Shown here: in pieces, positions 7,425-29,494 of the stretch
How the letters are laid out: each line of letters opens with the position of its first letter
Numbering within the stretch: position 1 is the first letter of the stretch
DNA from: a virus
Taxonomy: Duplodnaviria > Heunggongvirae > Uroviricota > Caudoviricetes
IMG/VR virus record: IMGVR_UViG_3300014922_000089
Length of the DNA stretch: 29,494 nt
Strand: one strand, 5' to 3'
Translations under genes and position numbers: made by a program
Notes under the pieces: generated by a model
Seen by the model: only the letters and a program-made list of their open reading frames with translations
Told to the model about the DNA's origin: nothing
Database searches by the model: none

Positions 7425-7570
7425 TCTTGAAATATTTGTGACATAAGCTAAGACACAAAATGATTGAAGGGCAGAGCAAATCCTACAGTCCTATGCTATT
7501 GTCTCATGTAATGTAGATAAGTTGAAAATTATCTTAAAATATAAGAGTAAAGACATTAAAAGGATTGGTT
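7425..7570 (+). promoter_or_regulatory. AT-rich putative promoter / 5' UTR of the cargo gene
   Basis: Abrupt shift to AT-rich sequence right after cos. TTGAAA and TATAAG-like hexamers present. AAAGGA SD 8 nt upstream of the ATG at 7571. No confident -35/-10 pair resolved. Confidence 0.3.
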
Positions 7571-8896
7571 ATGAATAATAACTCTAAGTTATTAAGCTCT
7601 ATCTCGGTTGAATCTGATTTCGAGAACCTTATAAAACTATATGCAAATGAGTTATTTGGTGGTGAAACATATCTGATCGGTGGTCCTTGGGATAATGGAA
7701 AGGATTTGGTAATAAAAAAGGGGAATAGAGAGTTAAAGCAAGCTGTACAAATATCTATTCAAGAGAAAAATATTGAAAGTAAGATTGCTCAAGATATTAA
7801 AAAAGTGGCGAAATTGGTTGATGATCATTATTACCCGCCTGTATTATATTTTTTTTGGAGTCATTCAATATCTGAGCATTTATTGGATAAGATAAGAACA
7901 AATGCTCTTAAGGAAGATTTGATTAGATTGGAGTTTTATGATGCCAAACGAATCTCTCAAGATATTACAGATAAATACCCAGGGTTATTGAATTACTTAA
8001 TAAAAGATATACATAAGATAAGTTCTAATACTGAAGATGCAATTAACTTGCAACAAAGAGCATTTTATGAATATTTATTGTTAAGCAAAGATAGTGCTAA
8101 TTTAAAAAATGAAATAATAAAAGCTAGTATTATGTCTAATTTATATGATGGCGGGAAGTCTGCTGATGATATTCTAGAGAATCTAAAAGGTGTTAGTCTT
8201 ACAAAACGTAGTTTACAGGGTAGACTGCAAAACCTAATTCATCAAAATAAAATTAGATTGAATGATGGTATATATAGCCTGTCACCAGAGGAAATTAAAA
8301 AACTTGAGAATATAAATCTCCGTGAAATTGTTAGAAAAGAAGAGTTGTTATCAGTAATAAATAATGAGTTGCCCAGAAATACAAGTAAGAATCTGGCTGT
8401 TCAAGTTGTTGATTTAATAATAAAGGCTTATGAAGAATCAATAAATGTCCAATTAACAGAAAGTAAATTTGAGCCTCCAAAATTACAGATATTCAAAACT
8501 ATAGTACATAATTTAAAGGTGTTGATACGGCAGGAATATGATTTGGATGATGAGTCTTCGGATGCTTTAGCAAAAAAGCTAATGGAGTTGGCTGGTCAAA
8601 ATGACTATTTATCCGAGCATTGCTCTGCTAAATTATGTGTGAATCTGTTAAGTGATCGGAAATTAGAGAAATATATTGAAAATAAAAATTTTTATATCTA
8701 TTTTGATGCGCCTGTTCTTATTCCATATTTGATAACTCTTATGTTTGGAGATTTTGAGCTTTTTGATAAGTCGATTAAAAATATAAATTTACTGAGAGAG
8801 TGCATAAATCCCCTCAAAAATAAACATCTGAGAGTTTCTAATGAACATTTTGAAGAAACTGCAAGGCACTACTCTGAAGCTGAAAAATTAAGTTAG
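7571..8896 (+). CDS. Cargo protein, N-terminal segment (441 aa); possible Mrr-like PD-(D/E)xK nuclease motif
   Basis: ATG at 7571 with SD. AT-rich with K/N/I-rich codon usage, foreign to the phage backbone. Motif GGPWDNGKDLVI...IQEK resembles Mrr-type GGxxDxGxD...QxK. Ends at an in-frame TAG (8894-8896). Confidence 0.7.
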   Translation: MNNNSKLLSSISVESDFENLIKLYANELFGGETYLIGGPWDNGKDLVIKKGNRELKQAVQISIQEKNIESKIAQDIKKVAKLVDDHYYPPVLYFFWSHSISEHLLDKIRTNALKEDLIRLEFYDAKRISQDITDKYPGLLNYLIKDIHKISSNTEDAINLQQRAFYEYLLLSKDSANLKNEIIKASIMSNLYDGGKSADDILENLKGVSLTKRSLQGRLQNLIHQNKIRLNDGIYSLSPEEIKKLENINLREIVRKEELLSVINNELPRNTSKNLAVQVVDLIIKAYEESINVQLTESKFEPPKLQIFKTIVHNLKVLIRQEYDLDDESSDALAKKLMELAGQNDYLSEHCSAKLCVNLLSDRKLEKYIENKNFYIYFDAPVLIPYLITLMFGDFELFDKSIKNINLLRECINPLKNKHLRVSNEHFEETARHYSEAEKLS

Positions 8897-8959: not shown

Positions 8960-9832
8960 ATGCGGTGGAAAAACAAACAGCCTAAACGTACAGACTTTTA
9001 CGATTTTACTTATGCTTTTCTAGGGTTGGATAAAGATGATATTTATGCGGGATATAAGCATGACACATTTGCGCAATGCATTCATAATTTACTAGCGTCA
9101 GCAAATATTGTTGTAATTGATAATAAAGACTCGGTGTCACAAGACTTTGTATTTAAAATAAAGCAAAAACTTAAAAGGGATTTGAATTCTTCACGTCCCG
9201 TTCGAGCCATAGAAAATGATGTTATATGTGCTGCAACTTTGAGTGATGAAACCCTACATCTTGATTCCAATGGTTACTTCAGTACTCCCATGCTAATAAC
9301 ACTTGATAGATCTCAATATCTATTGAGAAGCATAGTAAGAAATGAAAGGAGACATGCTGAATGGTTGGTTTATACCCCTCAAAGAGCAATTGAACGTCTT
9401 TCCTTGGTGGGTTTAAAAATATCATCGGAATCGTTAAAGGATGGTGTTTTAGCAACCATATCAGAAGAATATTTCTTTAAAGAAAGTTCCAGTAGTTTGA
9501 TTGATACTTTGGCTATTATCATTGGAGATAATCAAGCAAGGCAAGGAGATGTTATTAGGCTTGCATCGCTTTTAAAAAGAAAGGTCAATGAGGAATCTAT
9601 TGAGAATTCAGAAATTGATATTGAACACTATAATAACATTAGTTATGTGCTTCTTTTCATTCATCGTGAATTTAAATCTGAATTTTCAAATATAATAAAA
9701 ATTTTTGCTGAGGATAGTAGGCGAGATAAACTGGTTGAAGTTTTGTTATCCACTATTCAAGGAGTTTTTGATGAGAGTAAAAAGGAAATCTTGCGCTCAA
9801 ATATAGGACGGTTGTTGGCTGAAATGGGATGA
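8960..9832 (+). CDS. Cargo protein, C-terminal segment (290 aa); same frame as 7571-8896, no own SD
   Basis: Same reading frame as the upstream ORF. The 63 nt between them are open in that frame. No SD upstream of the ATG at 8960. Probably a continuation of one gene interrupted by an amber codon. Confidence 0.55.
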   Translation: MRWKNKQPKRTDFYDFTYAFLGLDKDDIYAGYKHDTFAQCIHNLLASANIVVIDNKDSVSQDFVFKIKQKLKRDLNSSRPVRAIENDVICAATLSDETLHLDSNGYFSTPMLITLDRSQYLLRSIVRNERRHAEWLVYTPQRAIERLSLVGLKISSESLKDGVLATISEEYFFKESSSSLIDTLAIIIGDNQARQGDVIRLASLLKRKVNEESIENSEIDIEHYNNISYVLLFIHREFKSEFSNIIKIFAEDSRRDKLVEVLLSTIQGVFDESKKEILRSNIGRLLAEMG

Positions 9833-17246: not shown

Positions 17247-17672
17247 ATGAAGAAATTATCCCTTTCACTGATGCTGAACGTGTCGCTGGCGCTGATGCTG
17301 GTACTGTCCCTGATTTACCCGCAGAGCGTGGCCGTCAGTTTTGTCGCTGCCTGGGCGATTCTGGCGACGGTTATCTGTGTGGTTGCCGGTGGTGTCGGCG
17401 TGTATGCCACTGAGTATGTACTGGAACGCTACGGGCGGGAGCTGCCGCCGGAATCGCTGGCCGTGAAGATTGTCGCGTCGCTGTTTTTGCAGCCGGTGCC
17501 GTGGCGCAGACGGGCGGCGGCTCTGGTGGTGATGGTGGCGACGTTTATCTCGCTGGTCGCTGCCGGGTGGATTTTTACTGCGCTGATTTACCTCGTGGCG
17601 TCGGTGTTTTTCCGGCTGATACGTAAAGCCTGTCGTCAGCGTCTTGAGGGGCGGGAATTATGTCAAAGCTGA
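17247..17672 (+). CDS. lysA: LysA (membrane protein, lysis timing), 141 aa
   Basis: 141 aa, strongly hydrophobic. Confidence 0.75.
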   Translation: MKKLSLSLMLNVSLALMLVLSLIYPQSVAVSFVAAWAILATVICVVAGGVGVYATEYVLERYGRELPPESLAVKIVASLFLQPVPWRRRAAALVVMVATFISLVAAGWIFTALIYLVASVFFRLIRKACRQRLEGRELCQS

Positions 17673-18085: not shown

Positions 18086-18230
18086 CCCGCAGACGAACGG
18101 CGATTTAAGTGCCGATATCCGGCAGCTTGAGAACGCGCTGGCACGCTGTGCCAGCCAGGTAAAAATGATTAAACACTGTCAGGATGAAAACGATGCTCAA
18201 ACCCGACAGCCTGCGCAGGGCGCTGACTGA
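17940..18230 (+). CDS. lysC: LysC (Rz1-like outer-membrane lipoprotein spanin), 96 aa, embedded out of frame in lysB
   Basis: MKTKIFAAGMVLTCLMLCAGC: signal peptide plus lipobox. Proline-rich. Overlaps the lysB 3' end in another frame. Confidence 0.7.
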   Translation: MKTKIFAAGMVLTCLMLCAGCTSAPPAPTPVIVANACPKVSLCPMPGSDPQTNGDLSADIRQLENALARCASQVKMIKHCQDENDAQTRQPAQGAD

Positions 18231-18414
18231 TGCCGTCACGGTGCTGAAAACCAGTCCCGAGATGCTGCGGATATTCGTGGATACTGGATGTGCAAAGGCT
18301 CCTGGTCATATGCAAATAACAAAATCATTACGGATACCGGATGTGGTGATATCCACCTGGCTGGTTGTGTCGTCGAGGTCATGGGAACAAAATCTGCAAT
18401 CACCATCCGAGTGA
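18193..18414 (+). pseudogene. R: Truncated tail completion gene R (only about 32 N-terminal codons R-like, then junk)
   Basis: MLKPDSLRRALTDAVTVLKTSPEMLRIFVDTG matches the gpR N-terminus as recalled. The frame then runs into unrelated sequence. S, V, W, J and I are absent. Confidence 0.5.
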
Positions 18415-19394
18415 CAACGCCGACAACATCAAGTGGTGGCGGTACAACCAGCGCGCAATTCACTTACATTAATCATGGGGACGGCTACTCCCCCGGCTGG
18501 CGTCGTGACTGGAATCGTCAGGGCGACGCAATGACCGGAACGATTAATCAGGACGGCGGAAGCCAGAATACCTATATGTCTACGGCCTTATGTTCAGGCA
18601 CCAGAGGCGGCAAAAAATATCTCAGAAAGTTTCGTGGTGGAGAAGGAGACACTATCTGGCATGAAACAGTACAGGGCGGGGTTGTTCGCTGGGCGACTGG
18701 TAATACTGATGCTCAGGAAGAATTATCACTCAGCTCCGCTTATGGTCTCCGTTCAAGAGGTGAGATTACATCAAGCAGTGCTAATGGTCTGCGCATTGCT
18801 TATGGCAATTATGGATTCTTTATCAGGAATGATGGCAGCAGCACTTATTTTATGTTGACTAAATCAGGTGACAGATTAGGCACTTATAATAATTTAAGAC
18901 CACTGATTATAAATGATGCCACGGGTGCTGTATCAATGGGGCATGGCCTGAGTGTTACTGGTGATATTGTCTCAAGTACCAAAGTACGTGCCGGTAGCGG
19001 GAAAAAATTCACGGTCAGCAGCAGTAATACATCCACGAAGGAAGCCGCATTCAATTTGTGGGGAAACTCAAGTCGTCCGGTGGTGGCTGAATTAGGTGAT
19101 GATGCAGGCTGGCATTTTTACAGTCAGAGAAATACAGATAACAGCATCACTTTTGCTGTTAACGGTCAGGTATCACCATCTAACTATAGTAATTTTGATT
19201 CCCGTTATGTACGCGATATCCGGCTTGGGACTCGAGTTGTCCAGACCATGCAGAAAGGGGTGATGTATGAGAAAGCAGGGCACGTAATTACCGGGCTTGG
19301 TATTGTCGGTGAAGTCGATGGTGATGATCCCGCAGTATTCAGACCAATACAAAAATACATCAATGGCACATGGTATAACGTCGCACAGGTGTAA
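18288..19394 (+). pseudogene. H: 3' fragment of tail fibre gene H (C-terminal about 368 codons), no N-terminal region
   Basis: Gly/Ser/Thr-rich fibre-like sequence ending immediately before G. P2 H is 669 aa, so the 5' half is missing. Confidence 0.6.
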
Positions 19395-19397
19395 TTT

Positions 19398-19925
19398 ATG
19401 CAGCATTTAAAAAATATTACTGCGGGTAATCCAAAAACTGTTGCCCAATATCAACTGACAAAAAATTTTGATGTTATCTGGTTATGGTCCGAAGAGGGAA
19501 AAAACTGGTATGAGGAAGTAAGTAATTTTCAGGAAGACACGATAAAGATTGTTTACGACGAGAATAATATAATTGTCGGCATCACCAGAGATGCTTCAAC
19601 GCTCAACCCTGAAGGTTTTAGCGTTGTCGAGGTTCCTGATATTACCGCCAACCGACGTGCTGATGACTCAGGTAAATGGATGTTTAAGGATGGTGCCGTG
19701 ATTAAGAGGATTTATACGGCAGACGAACAGCAACAACAGGCAGAATCACAAAAGGCCGCGTTACTTTCCGAAGCGGAAAGCGTTATTCAGCCACTGGAGC
19801 GCGCTGTCAGGCTGAACATGGCAACAGATGAGGAGCGTAGCCGACTGGAAGCATGGGAACGCTACAGTGTTCTGGTCAGCCGTGTGGATCCTGCAAATCC
19901 TGAATGGCCGGAAATGCCGCAATAA
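19398..19925 (+). CDS. G: Tail fibre assembly chaperone G (175 aa)
   Basis: 175 aa, as P2 G. Immediately downstream of the H fragment. Confidence 0.8.
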
Positions 19926-20076
19926 GTTGTATGAGCTGACATATCTATAGCACAGAGTAAAGCCTAATCTGACAGTCCGCTCTGTGCAAGGAGCGGACAT
20001 TACCTAACACATTGGTAACCTTCACAGATTTACGCGTTCTACATAGTTAGCATTGTATCTGATGAGTTATCATGTT

Positions 20077-20856
20077 TTAAAATATCCAACTGATAAATCC
20101 ACCTGAATACTTTTCACTAATTTTGATTGCATAAAGATCATGAAGAGTTATAAATAAATCATTATCTTCTTTGAAAATTAACTCCTCATATTCTGCCATT
20201 ATCAAATTATGCTGTGTTGTTAGTTTAGATATGTTATCTATTTCACTGGCAAGCATGGATTTGTTTACATTGGTGTGTGGATCCATGGCAATATATTTCC
20301 GCATCAATGGAATTAGTTGATCAGGGTCTATATTTTTTGCATTTTCCTTTGCTTTTTTTTGTCTTTCTGAATAGATGGAGTTAATTGTGTCAGTGTGTTT
20401 TTTCGCCAGTCTCTTAAACTCTGGATATGAACCAGTAACTAATGCAAGCTCTTCGTACTTAAGGAATAAATCGATATTGCATTTTTTTACCGTCATTTCA
20501 AGATCTTCAACTCTTTTTTTTAACTCTTCATTTGTTTTAATAAGAGACATCGGGAGAACTTCATAATGTTGTCCTAATTCTGAATCAGGGCTCATTGCCA
20601 TATGTACTATTTCATTATACATGAGCTGATAAGAAGCAGATAACTCTCCATACTTTAGAAATAGTTCATTATGTGAAGATGAACAAGAACTTTGTAATTT
20701 CATCATTGGCCTAAAGTAATCCTTTATAAACTCCTCCTGAAGATCTTGGTCTTTTTTGTAGCTCTCTAGGATTCCAGCAAAAAGAAATGACCCTAAAGAT
20801 ATAGAGATTATGGATATTAGCAATTGACTAAGGAATGATTGTGTTTCATTACTCAT
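20077..20856 (-). CDS. AT-rich cargo protein, 259 aa, N-terminal transmembrane helix (Z/fun-position gene)
   Basis: ATG at 20856 with AAGGA SD. One predicted transmembrane helix (LSQLLISIISISLGSFLFAGIL), then a helical soluble region. Opposite strand to the late genes. AT-rich. Confidence 0.65.
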   Translation of the reverse strand: MSNETQSFLSQLLISIISISLGSFLFAGILESYKKDQDLQEEFIKDYFRPMMKLQSSCSSSHNELFLKYGELSASYQLMYNEIVHMAMSPDSELGQHYEVLPMSLIKTNEELKKRVEDLEMTVKKCNIDLFLKYEELALVTGSYPEFKRLAKKHTDTINSIYSERQKKAKENAKNIDPDQLIPLMRKYIAMDPHTNVNKSMLASEIDNISKLTTQHNLIMAEYEELIFKEDNDLFITLHDLYAIKISEKYSGGFISWIF

Positions 20857-21133
20857 AAAACATCCTTAAAAAATAACACGAAAAGTGACTCCTGACAGGG
20901 AAGAAACGACAGGTCGGAAACAAACTTAACTGATGAGTTAGCCGTAGTCCAGAACCTTGTTTGAACACTTAGTGTGACTGTTTGCATCTCAGGAATTTGT
21001 GCCAATAACATTTGAATCCTTATAATTTATTTAAATCAAATTTAGTTACTCGCTCAAAGCAGGCTGTCAGATTTGATAGCATTTGGGCTATGTAAATTGT
21101 CAGGCGGAAAATGAGTGAGTACAAATCAGGACA

Positions 21134-21160
21134 GGCGGGCGAATTGCCCGCCTTTTCTTT
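21134..21160 (+). terminator. Terminator-like hairpin (GGCGGGC-GAATT-GCCCGCC + TTTTCTTT) upstream of FI
   Basis: Perfect 7-bp GC stem followed by a T-rich run on the + strand. Confidence 0.45.
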
Positions 21161-21256: not shown

Positions 21257-22447
21257 ATGAGTGACTATCATCACGGCGTGCAGGTGCTGGAGATTAACGA
21301 CGGCACCCGCGTCATTTCCACCGTATCCACAGCCATTGTCGGCATGGTCTGCACGGCCAGCGATGCGGATGCGGAAACCTTCCCCATCAATAAACCGGTG
21401 CTGATTACCAATGTGCAGAGCGCAATTGCAAAGGCTGGTAAAAAAGGCACGCTGGCGGCATCGTTGCAGGCCATCGCCGACCAGTCAAAACCGGTCACCG
21501 TTGTCGTGCGTGTGGAAGACGGCACCGGCGACGACGAGGAAACGAAACTCGCGCAGACCGTTTCCAATATCATCGGCACCACCGACGAAAACGGTCAGTA
21601 CACCGGACTGAAAGCCCTGCTGGCGGCGGAGTCGGTAACCGGTGTTAAACCGCGTATTCTCGGCGTGCCGGGACTGGACACCAAAGAGGTGGCTGTTGCA
21701 CTGGCATCAGTCTGTCAGAAGCTGCGCGCTTTCGGGTATATCAGCGCATGGGGCTGTAAAACCATTTCCGAGGTGAAAGCCTACCGTCAGAATTTCAGCC
21801 AGCGTGAGCTGATGGTCATCTGGCCGGATTTCCTCGCATGGGATACGGTTGCCAGTACCACCGCCACCGCGTATGCCACCGCCCGTGCGCTGGGTCTGCG
21901 TGCCAGAATCGACCAGGAGCAGGGCTGGCATAAAACGCTGTCCAACGTCGGGGTGAACGGTGTTACCGGCATCAGCGCATCTGTATTCTGGGATTTGCAG
22001 GAGTCCGGCACCGATGCTGACCTGCTGAATGAGTCAGGCGTCACAACGCTGATTCGCCGTGACGGTTTCCGCTTCTGGGGTAACCGTACCTGCTCTGATG
22101 ACCCGCTGTTCCTCTTTGAAAACTACACCCGCACCGCGCAGGTGCTGGCCGATACGATGGCTGAGGCGCACATGTGGGCGGTGGACAAGCCCATCACCGC
22201 AACGCTGATTCGCGACATCGTTGACGGCATCAATGCCAAATTCCGTGAGCTGAAAACAAACGGCTATATCGTGGATGCGACCTGCTGGTTCAGCGAAGAA
22301 TCCAACGATGCGGAAACCCTCAAGGCCGGAAAACTGTATATCGACTACGACTATACCCCGGTGCCTCCTCTCGAAAACCTGACCCTGCGCCAGCGTATTA
22401 CCGATAAATACCTGGCAAATCTGGTCACCTCGGTTAACAGCAATTAA
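21257..22447 (+). CDS. FI: Tail sheath protein FI (396 aa)
   Basis: 396 aa, as P2 FI. Confidence 0.9.
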   Translation: MSDYHHGVQVLEINDGTRVISTVSTAIVGMVCTASDADAETFPINKPVLITNVQSAIAKAGKKGTLAASLQAIADQSKPVTVVVRVEDGTGDDEETKLAQTVSNIIGTTDENGQYTGLKALLAAESVTGVKPRILGVPGLDTKEVAVALASVCQKLRAFGYISAWGCKTISEVKAYRQNFSQRELMVIWPDFLAWDTVASTTATAYATARALGLRARIDQEQGWHKTLSNVGVNGVTGISASVFWDLQESGTDADLLNESGVTTLIRRDGFRFWGNRTCSDDPLFLFENYTRTAQVLADTMAEAHMWAVDKPITATLIRDIVDGINAKFRELKTNGYIVDATCWFSEESNDAETLKAGKLYIDYDYTPVPPLENLTLRQRITDKYLANLVTSVNSN

Positions 22448-28132: not shown

Positions 28133-29494
28133 TCACTTACCGTGGGGATTACGCGTGGTTTCCCCGGAGAAATTACGCATCAGCAGCGCGTAATTGAGCT
28201 CAAGATCCTGCGGGACCGGGAGCCACACAGTATAACCATCGCCTGGTGCTATCGGCATAGCTTCGCCTTTGGCGTTTTCCATGTGCTCAAGGGTAAAATT
28301 AATGTTGCCTTGCGGCGTCATCAGCTCAAGGCTGTCGCCAACGGAGAATTTATTTTTCACCGCTACCGCCGCGAGGTCCCCCTTGCGCTCACCGGTAAAC
28401 TCACCAACAAACTGCTGGCGGTCAGAAACTGAATAACCGTATTCGTAGTTCTGATAATCGTCGTGAGTATGACGACGCAGGAAACCTTCGGTATAGCCAC
28501 GATGCGCCAGACCTTCCAGAGTTTCCAGCAGGCTGGTATCGAACGGTTTTCCCGCAGCGGCGTCATCGATAGCTTTGCGGTAAACCTGTGCGGTGCGTGC
28601 ACAATAGTAGAAAGATTTGGTACGACCTTCGATTTTCAGCGAATGCACGCCCATTTTGGTCAGGCGTTCTACATGGGCGATGGCGCGCAGATCTTTCGAG
28701 TTCATGATGTAAGTGCCGTGCTCATCTTCAAACGCGGTCATATACTCGCCCGGACGCTGGGCCTCTTCGATCATAAACACTTTGTCGGTTGGTGCGCCGA
28801 TACCCAGCGTCGGCTCAACATTTTGCACCGGAATCGGCTCGTACTTGTGTACGATGTTGCCAACATCATCTTCTTTCCCTTCCTGGACGTTGTACTCCCA
28901 GCGGCAGGCGTTGGTGCAGGTGCCCTGGTTCGGGTCGCGCTTGTTGATATAGCCAGAGAGCAGGCAGCGACCGGAGTAGGCCATGCACAGCGCGCCGTGA
29001 ACGAAGATCTCGATCTCCATATCCGGCACCTGATTGCGGATCTCTTCAATCTCTTCCAGCGACAGCTCGCGAGAGAGGATCACGCGGGTCAGGCCCATTT
29101 GCTGCCAGAATTTCACCGTCGCCCAGTTCACGGCGTTAGCCTGCACCGAAAGGTGGATCGGCATTTCAGGGAAGTGCTCACGCACCAGCATAATCAGCCC
29201 TGGATCGGACATAATCAGCGCATCCGGCCCCATTTCCACCACCGGTTTCAGGTCACGGATAAAGGTTTTCAGCTTGGCGTTGTGCGGTGCAATGTTGACC
29301 ACGACATAAAACTTTTTCCCCAGCGCGTGGGCTTCATTGATGCCGAGCTGAAGATTTTCGTGGTTGAATTCGTTGTTGCGCACACGCAGGGAATAACGCG
29401 GCTGGCCCGCATAAACAGCATCTGCGCCATAAGCGAAAGCGTAACGCATATTTTTCAGCGTTCCCGCCGGGGAAAGGAGTTCCGGTTTAAACAT
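28133..29494 (-). CDS. yegQ: Peptidase U32-family protein YegQ/TrhP (453 aa), host flank
   Basis: Full-length 453 aa starting MFKPELLSPAGTLKNMRYAFAYGADAVYAGQPRY, with the start codon at the window edge. Outside the att repeat. Confidence 0.85.
   Translation of the reverse strand: MFKPELLSPAGTLKNMRYAFAYGADAVYAGQPRYSLRVRNNEFNHENLQLGINEAHALGKKFYVVVNIAPHNAKLKTFIRDLKPVVEMGPDALIMSDPGLIMLVREHFPEMPIHLSVQANAVNWATVKFWQQMGLTRVILSRELSLEEIEEIRNQVPDMEIEIFVHGALCMAYSGRCLLSGYINKRDPNQGTCTNACRWEYNVQEGKEDDVGNIVHKYEPIPVQNVEPTLGIGAPTDKVFMIEEAQRPGEYMTAFEDEHGTYIMNSKDLRAIAHVERLTKMGVHSLKIEGRTKSFYYCARTAQVYRKAIDDAAAGKPFDTSLLETLEGLAHRGYTEGFLRRHTHDDYQNYEYGYSVSDRQQFVGEFTGERKGDLAAVAVKNKFSVGDSLELMTPQGNINFTLEHMENAKGEAMPIAPGDGYTVWLPVPQDLELNYALLMRNFSGETTRNPHGK

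What the first reader, a model, noticed from the sequence alone, without database searches (positions are those of the whole stretch)
20077..20856. Second AT-rich cargo gene at the G/FI (Z/fun) hotspot: 259-aa membrane-anchored protein on the opposite strand
Between the tail fibre assembly gene G and the sheath gene FI sits a single AT-rich gene transcribed against the late operons. It encodes a protein of about 30 kDa with one N-terminal transmembrane helix and a helical cytoplasmic region. Position, orientation and size match the P2 Z/fun (orf30) lysogenic-conversion locus, which in P2 excludes phage T5. I cannot confirm sequence identity to P2 Fun from memory; it may be a different allele at the same hotspot. 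Single membrane-anchored proteins at such hotspots are typical abortive-infection or superinfection-exclusion effectors.
Basis: partly seen in the sequence, partly recalled or inferred. Interest (0 to 1): 0.6.

Follow-up and report, generated by a model that had tools for sequence, protein, structure and literature searches.

The report
Orphan membrane gene in P2 hotspot
A real but uncharacterised 259-residue membrane protein fills the known Z/fun cargo slot of a P2-like prophage; it is unrelated to P2 Fun, travels as a 1.1-kb single-gene cassette often found beside anti-phage genes, and probably faces the periplasm, so it is a plausible but untested phage-exclusion gene.

Summary
The ORF is real: 20077-20856, minus strand, 259 aa, 30.1 kDa, about 32% GC against about 55% in the flanks, between G and FI of a P2-like prophage. 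Seventeen intact copies give a median dN/dS of 0.18. It is 99.6% identical to the unnamed 'hypothetical protein' p20 of Yersinia phage L-413C. It is unrelated to P2 Fun(Z), which is 528 aa, not about 259. It is also unrelated to Orf30, a different gene at a different site. It has no Pfam, PADLOC, PDB or fold relatives. The family is small: 92 representatives among 1.84 billion proteins. The gene is a stand-alone cassette of about 1.1 kb bounded by palindromic units. It occurs in P2 and lambdoid prophages, an ICE, a plasmid, and chromosomal islands beside R-M, Mrr, Shango, Abi_2 and PDC-S31 genes. The protein has one conserved TM helix and an all-helical domain. My best reading is an envelope-level anti-phage protein: a periplasmic sensor joined to a TM effector. 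Function and mechanism are inferred, not shown. It is a candidate new family at a known hotspot, of moderate interest.

The parts
20077..20856 (-). CDS of the 259-aa cargo protein. Residues 1-11 form a short N-terminus, about 12-30 a conserved TM helix (G22/S23/G28), 31-50 a highly constrained juxtamembrane segment (E31-x-Y33-K34, P50), and 51-249 a helical bundle with C58 and C126. The tail, 250-259, is aromatic and ends W-I-F.
   Evidence: ORF; 99.6% identical to L-413C NP_839869; exact sequence is ANO78562.1 / WP_065275707.1, 'hypothetical protein'; model; conservation and selection.
20863..20867 (-). Shine-Dalgarno AAGGA, 6 nt before the ATG
   Evidence: Read from the sequence. The block TATNTTTTAAGGAG is the only upstream stretch conserved even in distant loci.
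20857..21073 (-). Upstream part of the cassette, about 215 nt, conserved with non-P2 loci. It probably holds the cassette's own promoter and a long 5' leader. The by-eye candidate promoter is TTGAGC-17 nt-TTAAAT at 21057-21029 (weak).
   Evidence: blastn homology to Enterobacter, Phytobacter and Superficieibacter loci runs to 21060-21072 at 85-88%. The consensus scan found no minus-strand promoter here, so the promoter is inferred. The 52-codon upstream ORF 20853-21011 was rejected because its frame carries stops in homologues. No Rfam match.
21049..21073 (.). FI-proximal arm of the inverted repeat that bounds the cassette. It reads AATCTGACAG CCTGCTTTGAGCGAG inward.
   Evidence: Inverted repeat I1, 25 nt, 80% complementary. 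The 10-mer AATCTGACAG is paired in every P2 locus with this cargo and in P2-EC67, which carries other cargo. Junction alignment.
19966..19998 (.). G-proximal arm of the inverted repeat (19966-19990), overlapping a perfect 7-bp-stem palindrome, GTCCGCT-N10-AGCGGAC (19975-19998). This is the 3' edge of the cassette. It may be an RNA 3' stem-loop, a recombination substrate, or both.
   Evidence: The palindrome occurs once in the window, with 0 expected in 100 shuffles. It occurs once per locus (twice, in tandem, in L051 and L060) and lies 80-125 nt after the stop in both P2 and non-P2 loci, except in L006, where the single copy is about 1.3 kb upstream.
19398..19925 (+). P2 gene G (tail fibre assembly), the left border of the hotspot
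   Evidence: tblastn, 93% identity to P2 G.
21133..21153 (+). Terminator-like hairpin of the P2 backbone (9-bp stem, 7 GC pairs, T-run), between the cassette and FI. Plus-strand transcription leaving G would cross the cassette antisense before reaching it.
   Evidence: The same element is present in P2 and P2-EC67.
21257..22447 (+). P2 gene FI (tail sheath), the right border of the hotspot
   Evidence: tblastn, 98% identity to P2 FI.

Best explanation
The gene is a self-contained, horizontally mobile, single-gene cassette of about 1.1 kb: a leader and probable promoter, the ORF, and a 3' palindrome. A P2-like phage captured it in its Z/fun cargo slot. The product is a bitopic inner-membrane protein with a cytoplasmic N-terminus of about 11 residues and one strongly conserved TM helix. 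A roughly 225-residue elongated helical bundle, stapled by a C58-C126 disulfide, projects into the periplasm. I propose that it protects the lysogen against incoming phages from the periplasmic face of the inner membrane. In this model the variable, membrane-distal part of the bundle recognises a phage component that reaches the periplasm during infection, such as a tail tip, tape measure or ejection protein, or recognises the envelope damage these cause. Recognition drives self-association. The conserved TM and juxtamembrane module (small residues G22/S23/G28, then E31-x-Y-K) is the effector: it either opens a leak in the membrane (holin-like abortive infection) or obstructs the DNA-entry conduit.

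Shown: the gene is real and under purifying selection; it is unrelated to Fun and Orf30; the cassette boundaries; its occurrence in several kinds of mobile element and beside defence genes; one TM plus an all-helical fold; the co-conserved Cys pair; and the caspase fusion.

Inferred: the periplasmic orientation (strong inference), the anti-phage role (guilt by association), the split into sensor and effector, and oligomerisation as the trigger (weakest step).
For: (1) The gene is real and constrained. Median dN/dS is 0.18 over 17 intact CDS. Constraint is strongest at the juxtamembrane segment (pN/pS 0.09) and the TM (0.19), and weakest in helix 5 (0.40-0.47). The entropy profile shows the same pattern.

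(2) It stands alone. No neighbour is conserved across 15 loci, and DNA homology to non-P2 loci is limited to window 19975-21070.

(3) It occurs on mobile elements and beside defence genes:
- P2 G/FI slot in L-413C and 11 viral or metagenome loci.
- Lambdoid prophage moron.
- ICE and Legionella, 9 and 36 bp downstream of an Abi_2 gene.
- Mrr_cat nuclease immediately upstream in Enterobacter and, independently, in P. aeruginosa, where it also lies next to a type I R-M operon.
- Between HsdR and an HNH nuclease in Vibrio.
- Downstream of the Shango helicase SngC, E 5e-284, and 23 bp after PDC-S31.
- Conjugative Burkholderia plasmid.
About 8 of 22 distinct non-P2 contexts have a recognised defence gene within about 3 kb.

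(4) Topology:
- C58 (92%) and C126 (90%) are the two most conserved columns in a family with 17% mean column identity. They are the only Cys in the domain in 53 of 59 members.
- The two are lost together in 5 members and singly in 1. Fisher p = 1.2e-6, with at least 4 independent double losses.
- 15 of 59 members have K/R-rich N-extensions of 20 aa or more without a signal peptide.
- P0120 is Peptidase_C14 (E 2.4e-17) + TM + this domain. It sits after a type I R-M/AAA_13 operon, appears on two independent assemblies, and its C-terminal part is 65% identical to a stand-alone member.
- The N-flank has the more positive net charge in 53 of 59 members; for the window protein it is 0 against -2.

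(5) The TM is not a mere anchor. Positions 22, 23 and 28 are small residues in 85-93% of members, and E31, Y33 and K34 are 78-85% conserved. The caspase fusion, which has another effector, lacks the G-S...G motif.

(6) Single-TM pore formers with a large disulfide-containing periplasmic domain do exist, for example the phage T4 holin T (established knowledge, from memory). Envelope-level sensing is documented for Kiwa, Zorya and SNIPE (review PMC13434031).

Against: About a third to a half of the non-P2 contexts look like housekeeping loci: LysR/TctC, MFS transporter, GntR, hydrogenase, O-antigen ligase. The Abi_2 pairing is a single sub-lineage (77% and 85% identity), and that member is a borderline hit of the family profile (E 4e-4).

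By the plain K/R positive-inside count, the window protein has 0 K/R on the N side and 3 on the C flank, which on its own would favour a cytoplasmic C-domain. I could not read model coordinates, so the proximity of C58 and C126 rests only on helix-hairpin register (58+126 = 184 against 88+100 = 188). The caspase fusion is a single case. dN/dS never exceeds 1, so there is no positive evidence of an arms race. The split into sensor and effector, and the trigger, are inferences.
Confidence: 0.4

Rival explanations
1. It is a pure superinfection-exclusion blocker. The periplasmic bundle, or the TM, binds a host inner-membrane component or the incoming phage's tape-measure or ejection proteins, and passively prevents genome entry. 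There is no triggered toxicity and the cell survives, as described for HK97 gp15-type proteins.
For: It is prophage cargo at a lysogenic-conversion slot. The evidence for a periplasmic orientation is the same as above. The distal surface is variable. A conserved TM could reflect docking onto a conserved host membrane protein.
Against: The family is spread over Gamma- and Betaproteobacteria and a Nitrospirota MAG, and sits in generic defence islands beside R-M, Shango and Mrr. That is unusual for blockers tailored to one phage's entry route. Grafting the module onto a cytoplasmic caspase makes sense for a sensor but not for a passive plug.
Confidence: 0.22
2. One reading: the helical domain is cytoplasmic (N-out/C-in). 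The protein is an abortive-infection effector of the Rip1 or RexB type. Its cytoplasmic domain senses a phage protein or complex, and its N-terminal helix then permeabilises the membrane.
For: The window protein has 0 K/R before the TM and 3 in the 15 residues after it. Rip1 sets a precedent for a single prophage protein with an N-terminal pore helix and a C-terminal sensing domain (PMC13434031). The operon-like pairing with the cytoplasmic Abi_2 protein in one lineage would be easier to explain.
Against: The co-conserved, co-lost Cys pair, with almost no other Cys in the domain. The 20-49-aa basic N-extensions, and a 268-aa caspase domain N-terminal to the TM with no signal peptide, cannot plausibly be exported. 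The net-charge difference favours N-in in 53 of 59 members.
Confidence: 0.12
3. It is an orphan immunity or protection protein against periplasm-acting antibacterial toxins (T6SS/Rhs effectors, colicins, bacteriocins), not against phages.
For: In Pectobacterium it lies just downstream of an Rhs-PAAR toxin with an Imm26/DUF4303 orphan-immunity array. In Teredinibacter it lies near DUF4304. A membrane-anchored periplasmic protein is a common format for immunity to periplasmic effectors (established knowledge).
Against: No cognate toxin gene is adjacent in any of about 22 contexts, and no neighbour is conserved. The recurrent neighbours are R-M, Mrr, Abi_2, Shango and PDC-S31, and the carriers are prophages. 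A fusion to a caspase is not expected for an immunity protein.
Confidence: 0.1
4. It is a non-defence lysogenic-conversion or selfish cargo gene, for example an envelope-remodelling, stress or colonisation factor, or a gene with no benefit to the host that hitch-hikes with its flanking palindromes.
For: Many contexts look like housekeeping loci. According to Egorov et al. (bioRxiv 10.1101/2024.10.15.618418), the Z/fun hotspot is 'mixed purpose', and 89.8% of hotspot-encoded protein groups in phages overall are unannotated. No defence model matches.
Against: Purifying selection holds across deep divergence, and the ORF remains intact in a tail-defective prophage. It is enriched next to defence genes and on mobile elements. 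The caspase fusion lies in an R-M island.
Confidence: 0.14

Closest known systems
P2 Fun(Z) (NP_046777), the T5-excluding lysogenic-conversion gene of phage P2
   Same: It occupies the same genomic slot between G and FI, has the same orientation against the late operons, and is AT-rich foreign cargo. The same backbone palindrome and AATCTGACAG motif lie at the slot edge.
   Different: There is no sequence similarity (best BLASTP E 0.42). Fun is 528 aa against 259 aa. Nothing suggests a shared phenotype.
Yersinia phage L-413C gene L-413Cp20 (NP_839869, 'hypothetical protein')
   Same: It is the same gene: 99.6% aa and 99.1% nt identity, including the flanks, at the same slot.
   Different: No meaningful difference. 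The gene has been in GenBank without a name or function. According to PMC3448106, L-413C is probably an E. coli phage by origin.
Bitopic prophage superinfection-exclusion proteins with a periplasmic domain (HK97 gp15 type; from memory)
   Same: Both are prophage-encoded single genes, with an inferred N-in/C-out single-pass topology and an expected site of action at the periplasmic face of the inner membrane.
   Different: No detectable homology: tblastn against all phage records finds only L-413C. This family is widespread outside prophages, has a conserved TM motif and a Cys pair, and occurs once fused to a caspase. An entry block has not been tested.
Phage T4 holin T (class III holin; from memory)
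   Same: Same architecture: a short cytoplasmic N-terminus, one TM, and a large periplasmic domain that contains a disulfide and regulates hole formation.
   Different: It is not homologous. T acts in the phage's own lysis programme, whereas this gene is lysogen cargo. Pore formation here is only a hypothesis.
Rip1, Kiwa, SNIPE and Zorya (membrane-associated anti-phage systems reviewed in PMC13434031)
   Same: Like Rip1, it would combine sensor and effector in a single prophage protein. Like Kiwa and Zorya, it would survey the envelope or the periplasm for phage entry.
   Different: Rip1 senses cytoplasmic ring proteins. KwaA has four TM helices and a partner, KwaB. SNIPE has a cytoplasmic nuclease. 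Zorya has four genes. This protein has no cytoplasmic domain and no partner, and it matches no PADLOC model.

Membership tests
P2 Fun(Z) | Sequence homology to P2 Fun(Z) (528 aa) | tested here: not met
   BLASTP best E 0.42 over 14 residues. tblastn of the query finds no P2 record.
P2 Fun(Z) | Location between G and FI, transcribed opposite to the late operons | tested here: met
P2 Fun(Z) | Blocks growth of phage T5 and confers FUdR sensitivity | not testable with these tools
   Needs plaque assays. The phenotype is stated in the annotation of NC_001895.
P2 Orf30 | Sequence homology to Orf30 (261 aa) and location between S and V | tested here: not met
   BLASTP E 0.095. Orf30 lies at P2 9439-10224, between S and V. 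That region is deleted in this window.
Known or candidate anti-phage defence families (PADLOC-DB v2.0.0) | A match to any of the 5027 defence-protein HMMs | tested here: not met
   0 families at E <= 10.
Defence-island / MGE-hotspot cargo (guilt by association) | Recurrent co-location with recognised defence genes in unrelated genomes and on mobile elements | tested here: met
   Neighbours found: Mrr_cat twice independently, type I R-M three times, HNH, Abi_2, SngC (Shango), PDC-S31. Carriers found: P2 and lambdoid prophages, an ICE, a plasmid. This holds for about 8 of 22 non-P2 contexts, and I did not compute a background rate.
Bitopic periplasm-facing superinfection-exclusion proteins | Single TM with N-in/C-out orientation and a periplasmic C-domain | tested here: inconclusive
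   Supported by the Cys-pair co-conservation, the N-extensions, the caspase fusion and net charge. The window protein's own K/R count points the other way. No experimental topology exists.
Bitopic periplasm-facing superinfection-exclusion proteins | Expressed in the lysogen and blocks genome entry of a superinfecting phage | not testable with these tools
   Needs expression and DNA-entry assays.
ClyA/XaxB/YaxB alpha-pore-forming toxins | Significant fold similarity to the elongated ClyA-type bundle | tested here: not met
Integron-type gene cassette | attC recombination site and association with an integron integrase | not tested
   The cassette is bounded by palindromic units, but I made no comparison with attC models. 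No integron integrase was seen among the annotated neighbours.

The most novel reading that the evidence does not exclude
The family is a new kind of periplasmic immune sensor. A disulfide-stapled helical bundle standing on the inner membrane detects phage tail or ejection components, or the envelope breach itself, before the genome enters. It signals across the membrane by induced self-association. In most members the output is the protein's own conserved TM helix. In at least one lineage the output is a cytoplasmic caspase-like protease. That would make it a modular, single-polypeptide, outside-in phage alarm, portable between prophage hotspots and chromosomal defence islands on a palindrome-bounded 1.1-kb cassette.
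Probability: 0.2. Interest if true: 0.75.

Novelty: new variant of a known kind. Interest (0 to 1): 0.42.

Why it matters
If the gene does exclude phages, it would define a new single-gene defence family that acts in the periplasm. Few anti-phage mechanisms are understood in that compartment. It would also offer a minimal system, one TM plus one domain, for studying outside-in sensing of phage entry. The caspase fusion suggests the domain is a reusable sensor.

In practical terms, the gene is carried by L-413C, a plague-diagnostic phage, and by about 1.5% (13 of 878) of complete E. coli genomes that match the P2-type G/FI flanks. It could therefore affect phage typing and therapy outcomes.

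Separately, the conserved palindromic units at the cassette edges are shared by different cargos in the P2 slot and by chromosomal copies of this cargo. They suggest a concrete substrate for the rapid cargo swapping reported at P2 hotspots (PMC13586616).

If no phenotype is found, this is one more unannotated hotspot gene. According to Egorov et al., 89.8% of hotspot-encoded protein groups in phages are unannotated.

Tried and rejected
- **Identity with P2 Fun(Z) or Orf30:** rejected by direct BLASTP.
- **Domain and family assignment:** Pfam gives only DUF7006 at E 2.7, which is noise. NCBIfam gives a hemerythrin domain at E 0.1, also noise. PADLOC gives nothing. PHROG 7729 matches but has no known function and is built on an N-terminally truncated gene call covering residues 79-259.
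- **A conserved partner gene:** none across 15 loci. The two Mrr_cat neighbours share only the nuclease domain. The Abi_2 pair is a single lineage.
- **A translationally coupled 52-codon upstream ORF (20853-21011):** rejected, because the frame carries stops in L004, L005, L006, L023 and L027.
- **A structured RNA leader:** no Rfam match. I did not pursue covariation, because the leaders are too similar to each other.
- **CxxxH metal site:** H62 is conserved in only 56% of the family, whereas the two Cys are at 90-92%, so a disulfide is the more likely explanation.
- **Other fusions of the domain:** only stand-alone relatives were found.
- **Literature:** searches by accession or PHROG id found nothing. 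Nilsson et al. 2004 (PMID 12949155) and Garcia et al. 2008 are not in the held library.
- **Wider metagenome scans:** scans with the broad alignments failed for lack of conserved stretches.
Full report
**1. The observation**

The product has a mass of 30.09 kDa and a pI of 5.35. GC drops to 0.31-0.34 across 20000-21050, against 0.51-0.60 on either side. tblastn with P2 proteins identifies gene G at 19398-19925 (+) and FI at 21257-22447 (+). It also shows that the whole window is an integrated P2-like prophage running from int to ogr. The ORF is a real gene. Seventeen intact 259-codon copies from independent loci give a median pairwise dN/dS of 0.18, with a range of 0.07-0.47.

**2. What it is not**

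P2 itself (NC_001895) has fun(Z) in this slot, but fun(Z) is 1587 nt, or 528 aa. BLASTP of the window protein gives E 0.42 against Fun and E 0.095 against Orf30, so there is no relationship to either. tblastn against 50,697 phage records finds only Yersinia phage L-413C, at 99.6% identity. There the gene is L-413Cp20, a 'hypothetical protein'. The exact sequence is ANO78562.1 / WP_065275707.1 and is labelled hypothetical everywhere. Of 5,426 complete E. coli genomes, 878 match the P2-type flanks, but only 13 carry the full locus. This is therefore a rare allele at the hotspot.

**3. Family**

There is no Pfam, NCBIfam or PADLOC family. PHROG 7729 matches, but it has no known function and covers only residues 79-259. 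The word-indexed search found 45 clusters, nearly all 259 aa, in Gammaproteobacteria. An exhaustive profile search of 1.84 billion representatives found 92, almost all single-domain proteins of 250-300 aa. Species-level genomes add Bordetella, Pseudomonas, Psychrobacter, a Kangiellaceae MAG and a Nitrospirota MAG.

**4. A mobile single-gene cassette**

- Every copy at 99-100% identity lies between P2 G and FI: L-413C, six IMG/VR loci and five metagenome loci.
- Every copy at 86% identity or below lies outside P2, with no P2 gene within 6-8 kb where the contig allows.
- All-against-all comparison of flanking ORFs in 15 loci finds no conserved neighbour.
- DNA homology between the window and the Enterobacter, Phytobacter and Superficieibacter loci runs from 19975 to about 21070 at 85-88%.

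The unit is therefore about 1.1 kb: the ORF, about 215 nt upstream and about 100 nt downstream.

The edges coincide with a 25-nt inverted repeat at 19966-19990 and 21049-21073. Both arms read AATCTGACAG inward. The exact 10-mer pair is present in all P2 loci that carry this cargo. It also flanks the unrelated ORF1 of P2-EC67, whose GenBank record annotates left and right inverted repeats. Overlapping the G-proximal arm is a perfect palindrome, GTCCGCT-N10-AGCGGAC, at 19975-19998. It occurs once in the window, with 0 expected by chance. It occurs once per locus (twice, in tandem, in L051 and L060) and lies 80-125 nt after the stop in P2 and non-P2 contexts alike. The exception is L006, where the single copy is about 1.3 kb upstream. 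Related units (GTCCGCT...GAGCGA...GAC) lie on the upstream side in non-P2 loci. These shared palindromes are a plausible substrate for cargo exchange, but I did not test that.

**5. Expression signals**

A Shine-Dalgarno sequence, AAGGA, sits 6 nt before the ATG. Its surroundings are the only upstream block conserved in distant loci. The consensus scan found no minus-strand promoter. By eye, TTGAGC-17-TTAAAT at 21057-21029 is a weak candidate. A 52-codon upstream ORF whose stop overlaps the start codon (ATGA) is not conserved as coding sequence and was rejected. There is no Rfam match. A strong terminator-like hairpin on the plus strand (21133-21153) belongs to the P2 backbone and lies beyond the cassette. 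Late transcription leaving G would therefore cross the gene antisense. That last point is an inference.

**6. Genomic company**

Non-P2 contexts with mobile-element or defence links:
- Enterobacter ludwigii: Mrr_cat nuclease immediately upstream, plus a P4 Ash remnant.
- P. aeruginosa: HTH, Mrr_cat, the gene, then a convergent type I R-M operon, with integrase remnants. The two Mrr_cat proteins share only the nuclease domain, so these co-locations are independent.
- Vibrio sagamiensis: between HsdR and an HNH nuclease.
- Metagenome locus L056: downstream of SngC, the Shango helicase (PADLOC E 5e-284).
- Vibrio HI00D65: 23 bp after PDC-S31 (DUF2971), beside a Zot gene.
- Legionella and an ICE: 36 and 9 bp after an Abi_2 gene. 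This is one sub-lineage (77% and 85% identity), and it is only a borderline member of the family profile (E 4e-4).
- Enterobacter bugandensis: a moron in a lambdoid prophage.
- Pectobacterium: after an Rhs/Imm26/DUF4303 array, or next to an integrase.
- Teredinibacter: near IS110, DUF4304 and a HEPN protein.
- Burkholderia: on a conjugative plasmid.

Other contexts look like housekeeping loci: LysR/TctC, MFS transporter, GntR, hydrogenase, Wzy, other transporters. About 8 of 22 distinct non-P2 contexts have a recognised defence gene within about 3 kb. That is suggestive, but I computed no background rate.

**7. The protein**

Each member has exactly one hydrophobic segment. The TM is unusually conserved. 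Positions 22, 23 and 28 are small residues in 85-93% of members, and E31, Y33 and K34 are 78-85% conserved. Selection is tightest on the juxtamembrane segment (pN/pS 0.09) and the TM (0.19). It is loosest on helix 5 (0.40-0.47).

**8. Topology**

Four lines of evidence point the other way.

- **Cysteine pair.** Across 59 diverse members with 17% mean column identity, C58 and C126 are the two best-conserved columns, at 92% and 90%. They are the only cysteines in the domain in 53 members. Both are absent in 5 members and only one is absent in 1. Fisher p = 1.2e-6 (not corrected for phylogeny), and at least four of the double losses are independent. H62 is only 56% conserved, so a CxxxH metal site is unlikely. 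The helix-hairpin register (58+126 = 184 against 88+100 = 188) puts the two residues at a similar height (inference).
- **N-terminal extensions.** Fifteen of 59 members have K/R-rich N-extensions of 20 residues or more with no signal peptide.
- **Caspase fusion.** P0120 is Peptidase_C14 (E 2.4e-17) followed by the TM and this domain. It lies after a type I R-M/AAA_13 operon and appears on two independent assemblies. Its C-terminal part is 65% identical to a stand-alone member. A 268-residue caspase domain without a signal peptide must be cytoplasmic.
- **Net charge.** The N-flank is the more positive in 53 of 59 members. For the window protein the values are 0 and -2.

Against this, a plain K/R count for the window protein alone gives 0 against 3, which favours the opposite orientation. 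I rate N-in/C-out with a periplasmic, disulfide-stapled bundle as likely, at about 0.7, but unproven.

**9. Mechanism**

With only about 11 cytoplasmic residues and no partner gene, the protein must act in the membrane or the periplasm. Three observations suggest that the bundle is a sensor and the TM module is the effector in stand-alone members:
- the conserved TM and juxtamembrane module;
- the more variable distal half of the bundle;
- the domain has been grafted onto a proximity-activated protease, and that fusion has lost the G-S...G TM motif.

I therefore favour an envelope-level anti-phage protein in which periplasmic recognition drives self-association. The TM helices then either leak the membrane or obstruct the entry channel. 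Architectural precedents are the T4 holin T (from memory) and the envelope-sensing systems Kiwa, Zorya and SNIPE, together with the single-protein sensor and pore Rip1 (PMC13434031). None of these is homologous to this protein.

The rivals are:
- a passive entry blocker (0.22);
- a cytoplasmic-domain abortive-infection effector (0.12);
- toxin immunity (0.10);
- a non-defence or selfish cargo gene (0.14).

**10. Novelty and verdict**

The hotspot is well known, and the sequence has been public since the L-413C genome was deposited. What is new is the characterisation:
- an orphan family that is not Fun;
- a palindrome-bounded cassette shared between prophage hotspots and defence islands;
- a probable periplasmic, disulfide-stapled sensor bundle with a conserved TM;
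- a caspase fusion.

Function is untested. This is a candidate new family of a known general kind, of moderate interest (0.42).

Noticed in passing
window 18184-19394 (junction at 18282/18283): The prophage is tail-defective. Similarity to P2 stops 91 nt into gene R. From 18282 the sequence is 100% identical to the intact prophage L017, but resumes in mid-H. About 5.9 kb is missing: the 3' part of R, then S, V, W, J, I and the 5' part of H. This creates a chimeric 368-codon ORF at 18288-19394. The cargo gene is intact all the same. Strain GB089 carries the same cassette with a full-length tail fibre gene.
   Followed up: yes
window 7565-8896 (+, 443 aa) and 8960-9832 (+, 290 aa): The other P2 hotspot, between A and Q (the old/tin position), carries a different AT-rich two-gene cargo, with GC 0.29-0.36. 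Neither protein has a Pfam or PADLOC match. It is a second uncharacterised candidate system in the same prophage.
   Followed up: partly
window 19966-19998 and 21049-21073; L002 (P2-EC67) 83-92 and 1278-1287; L003 (P2) 17455-17464: The Z/fun slot is framed by AATCTGACAG inverted repeats and GTCCGCT-N10-AGCGGAC-type palindromes whatever cargo it holds (fun, EC67 ORF1 or this gene). Chromosomal copies of this cassette carry related units at both ends. This may be the recombination substrate for cargo swapping. I did not compare them with REP or attC models.
   Followed up: partly
L040 6001-7539 (P0120); L041: A 512-aa protein from a metagenome contig fuses a caspase-like Peptidase_C14 domain to the TM and helical domain of this family. 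The best NCBIfam match is 'caspase, EACC1-associated type', below its cut-off. The gene lies directly after an hsdR-hsdS-AAA_13-hsdM operon.
   Followed up: partly
window 20077-20106 (C-terminal residues 250-259): The close family ends in W-x-F-COOH (F259 invariant, W257 at 90% or more in alignment A1). This is an aromatic-x-Phe C-terminus like the outer-membrane-protein tails that activate the periplasmic protease DegS (from memory). The motif is not conserved in distant members. If the tail is periplasmic, a link to envelope-stress signalling is conceivable but speculative.
   Followed up: no
L032 478-1467 and L033 6014-6991: In one divergent sub-lineage (Legionella and an ICE), the homologue forms an apparent two-gene operon with an Abi_2 (AbiD/AbiF-type) gene, with gaps of 36 and 9 bp. 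In the ICE the pair follows an HTH gene and sits next to an HxsD/radical-SAM cluster.
   Followed up: partly
window 28133-29494 (-): The flanking host gene beyond ogr encodes a Peptidase_U32 family protein, which marks the chromosomal side of the prophage's right end.
   Followed up: no
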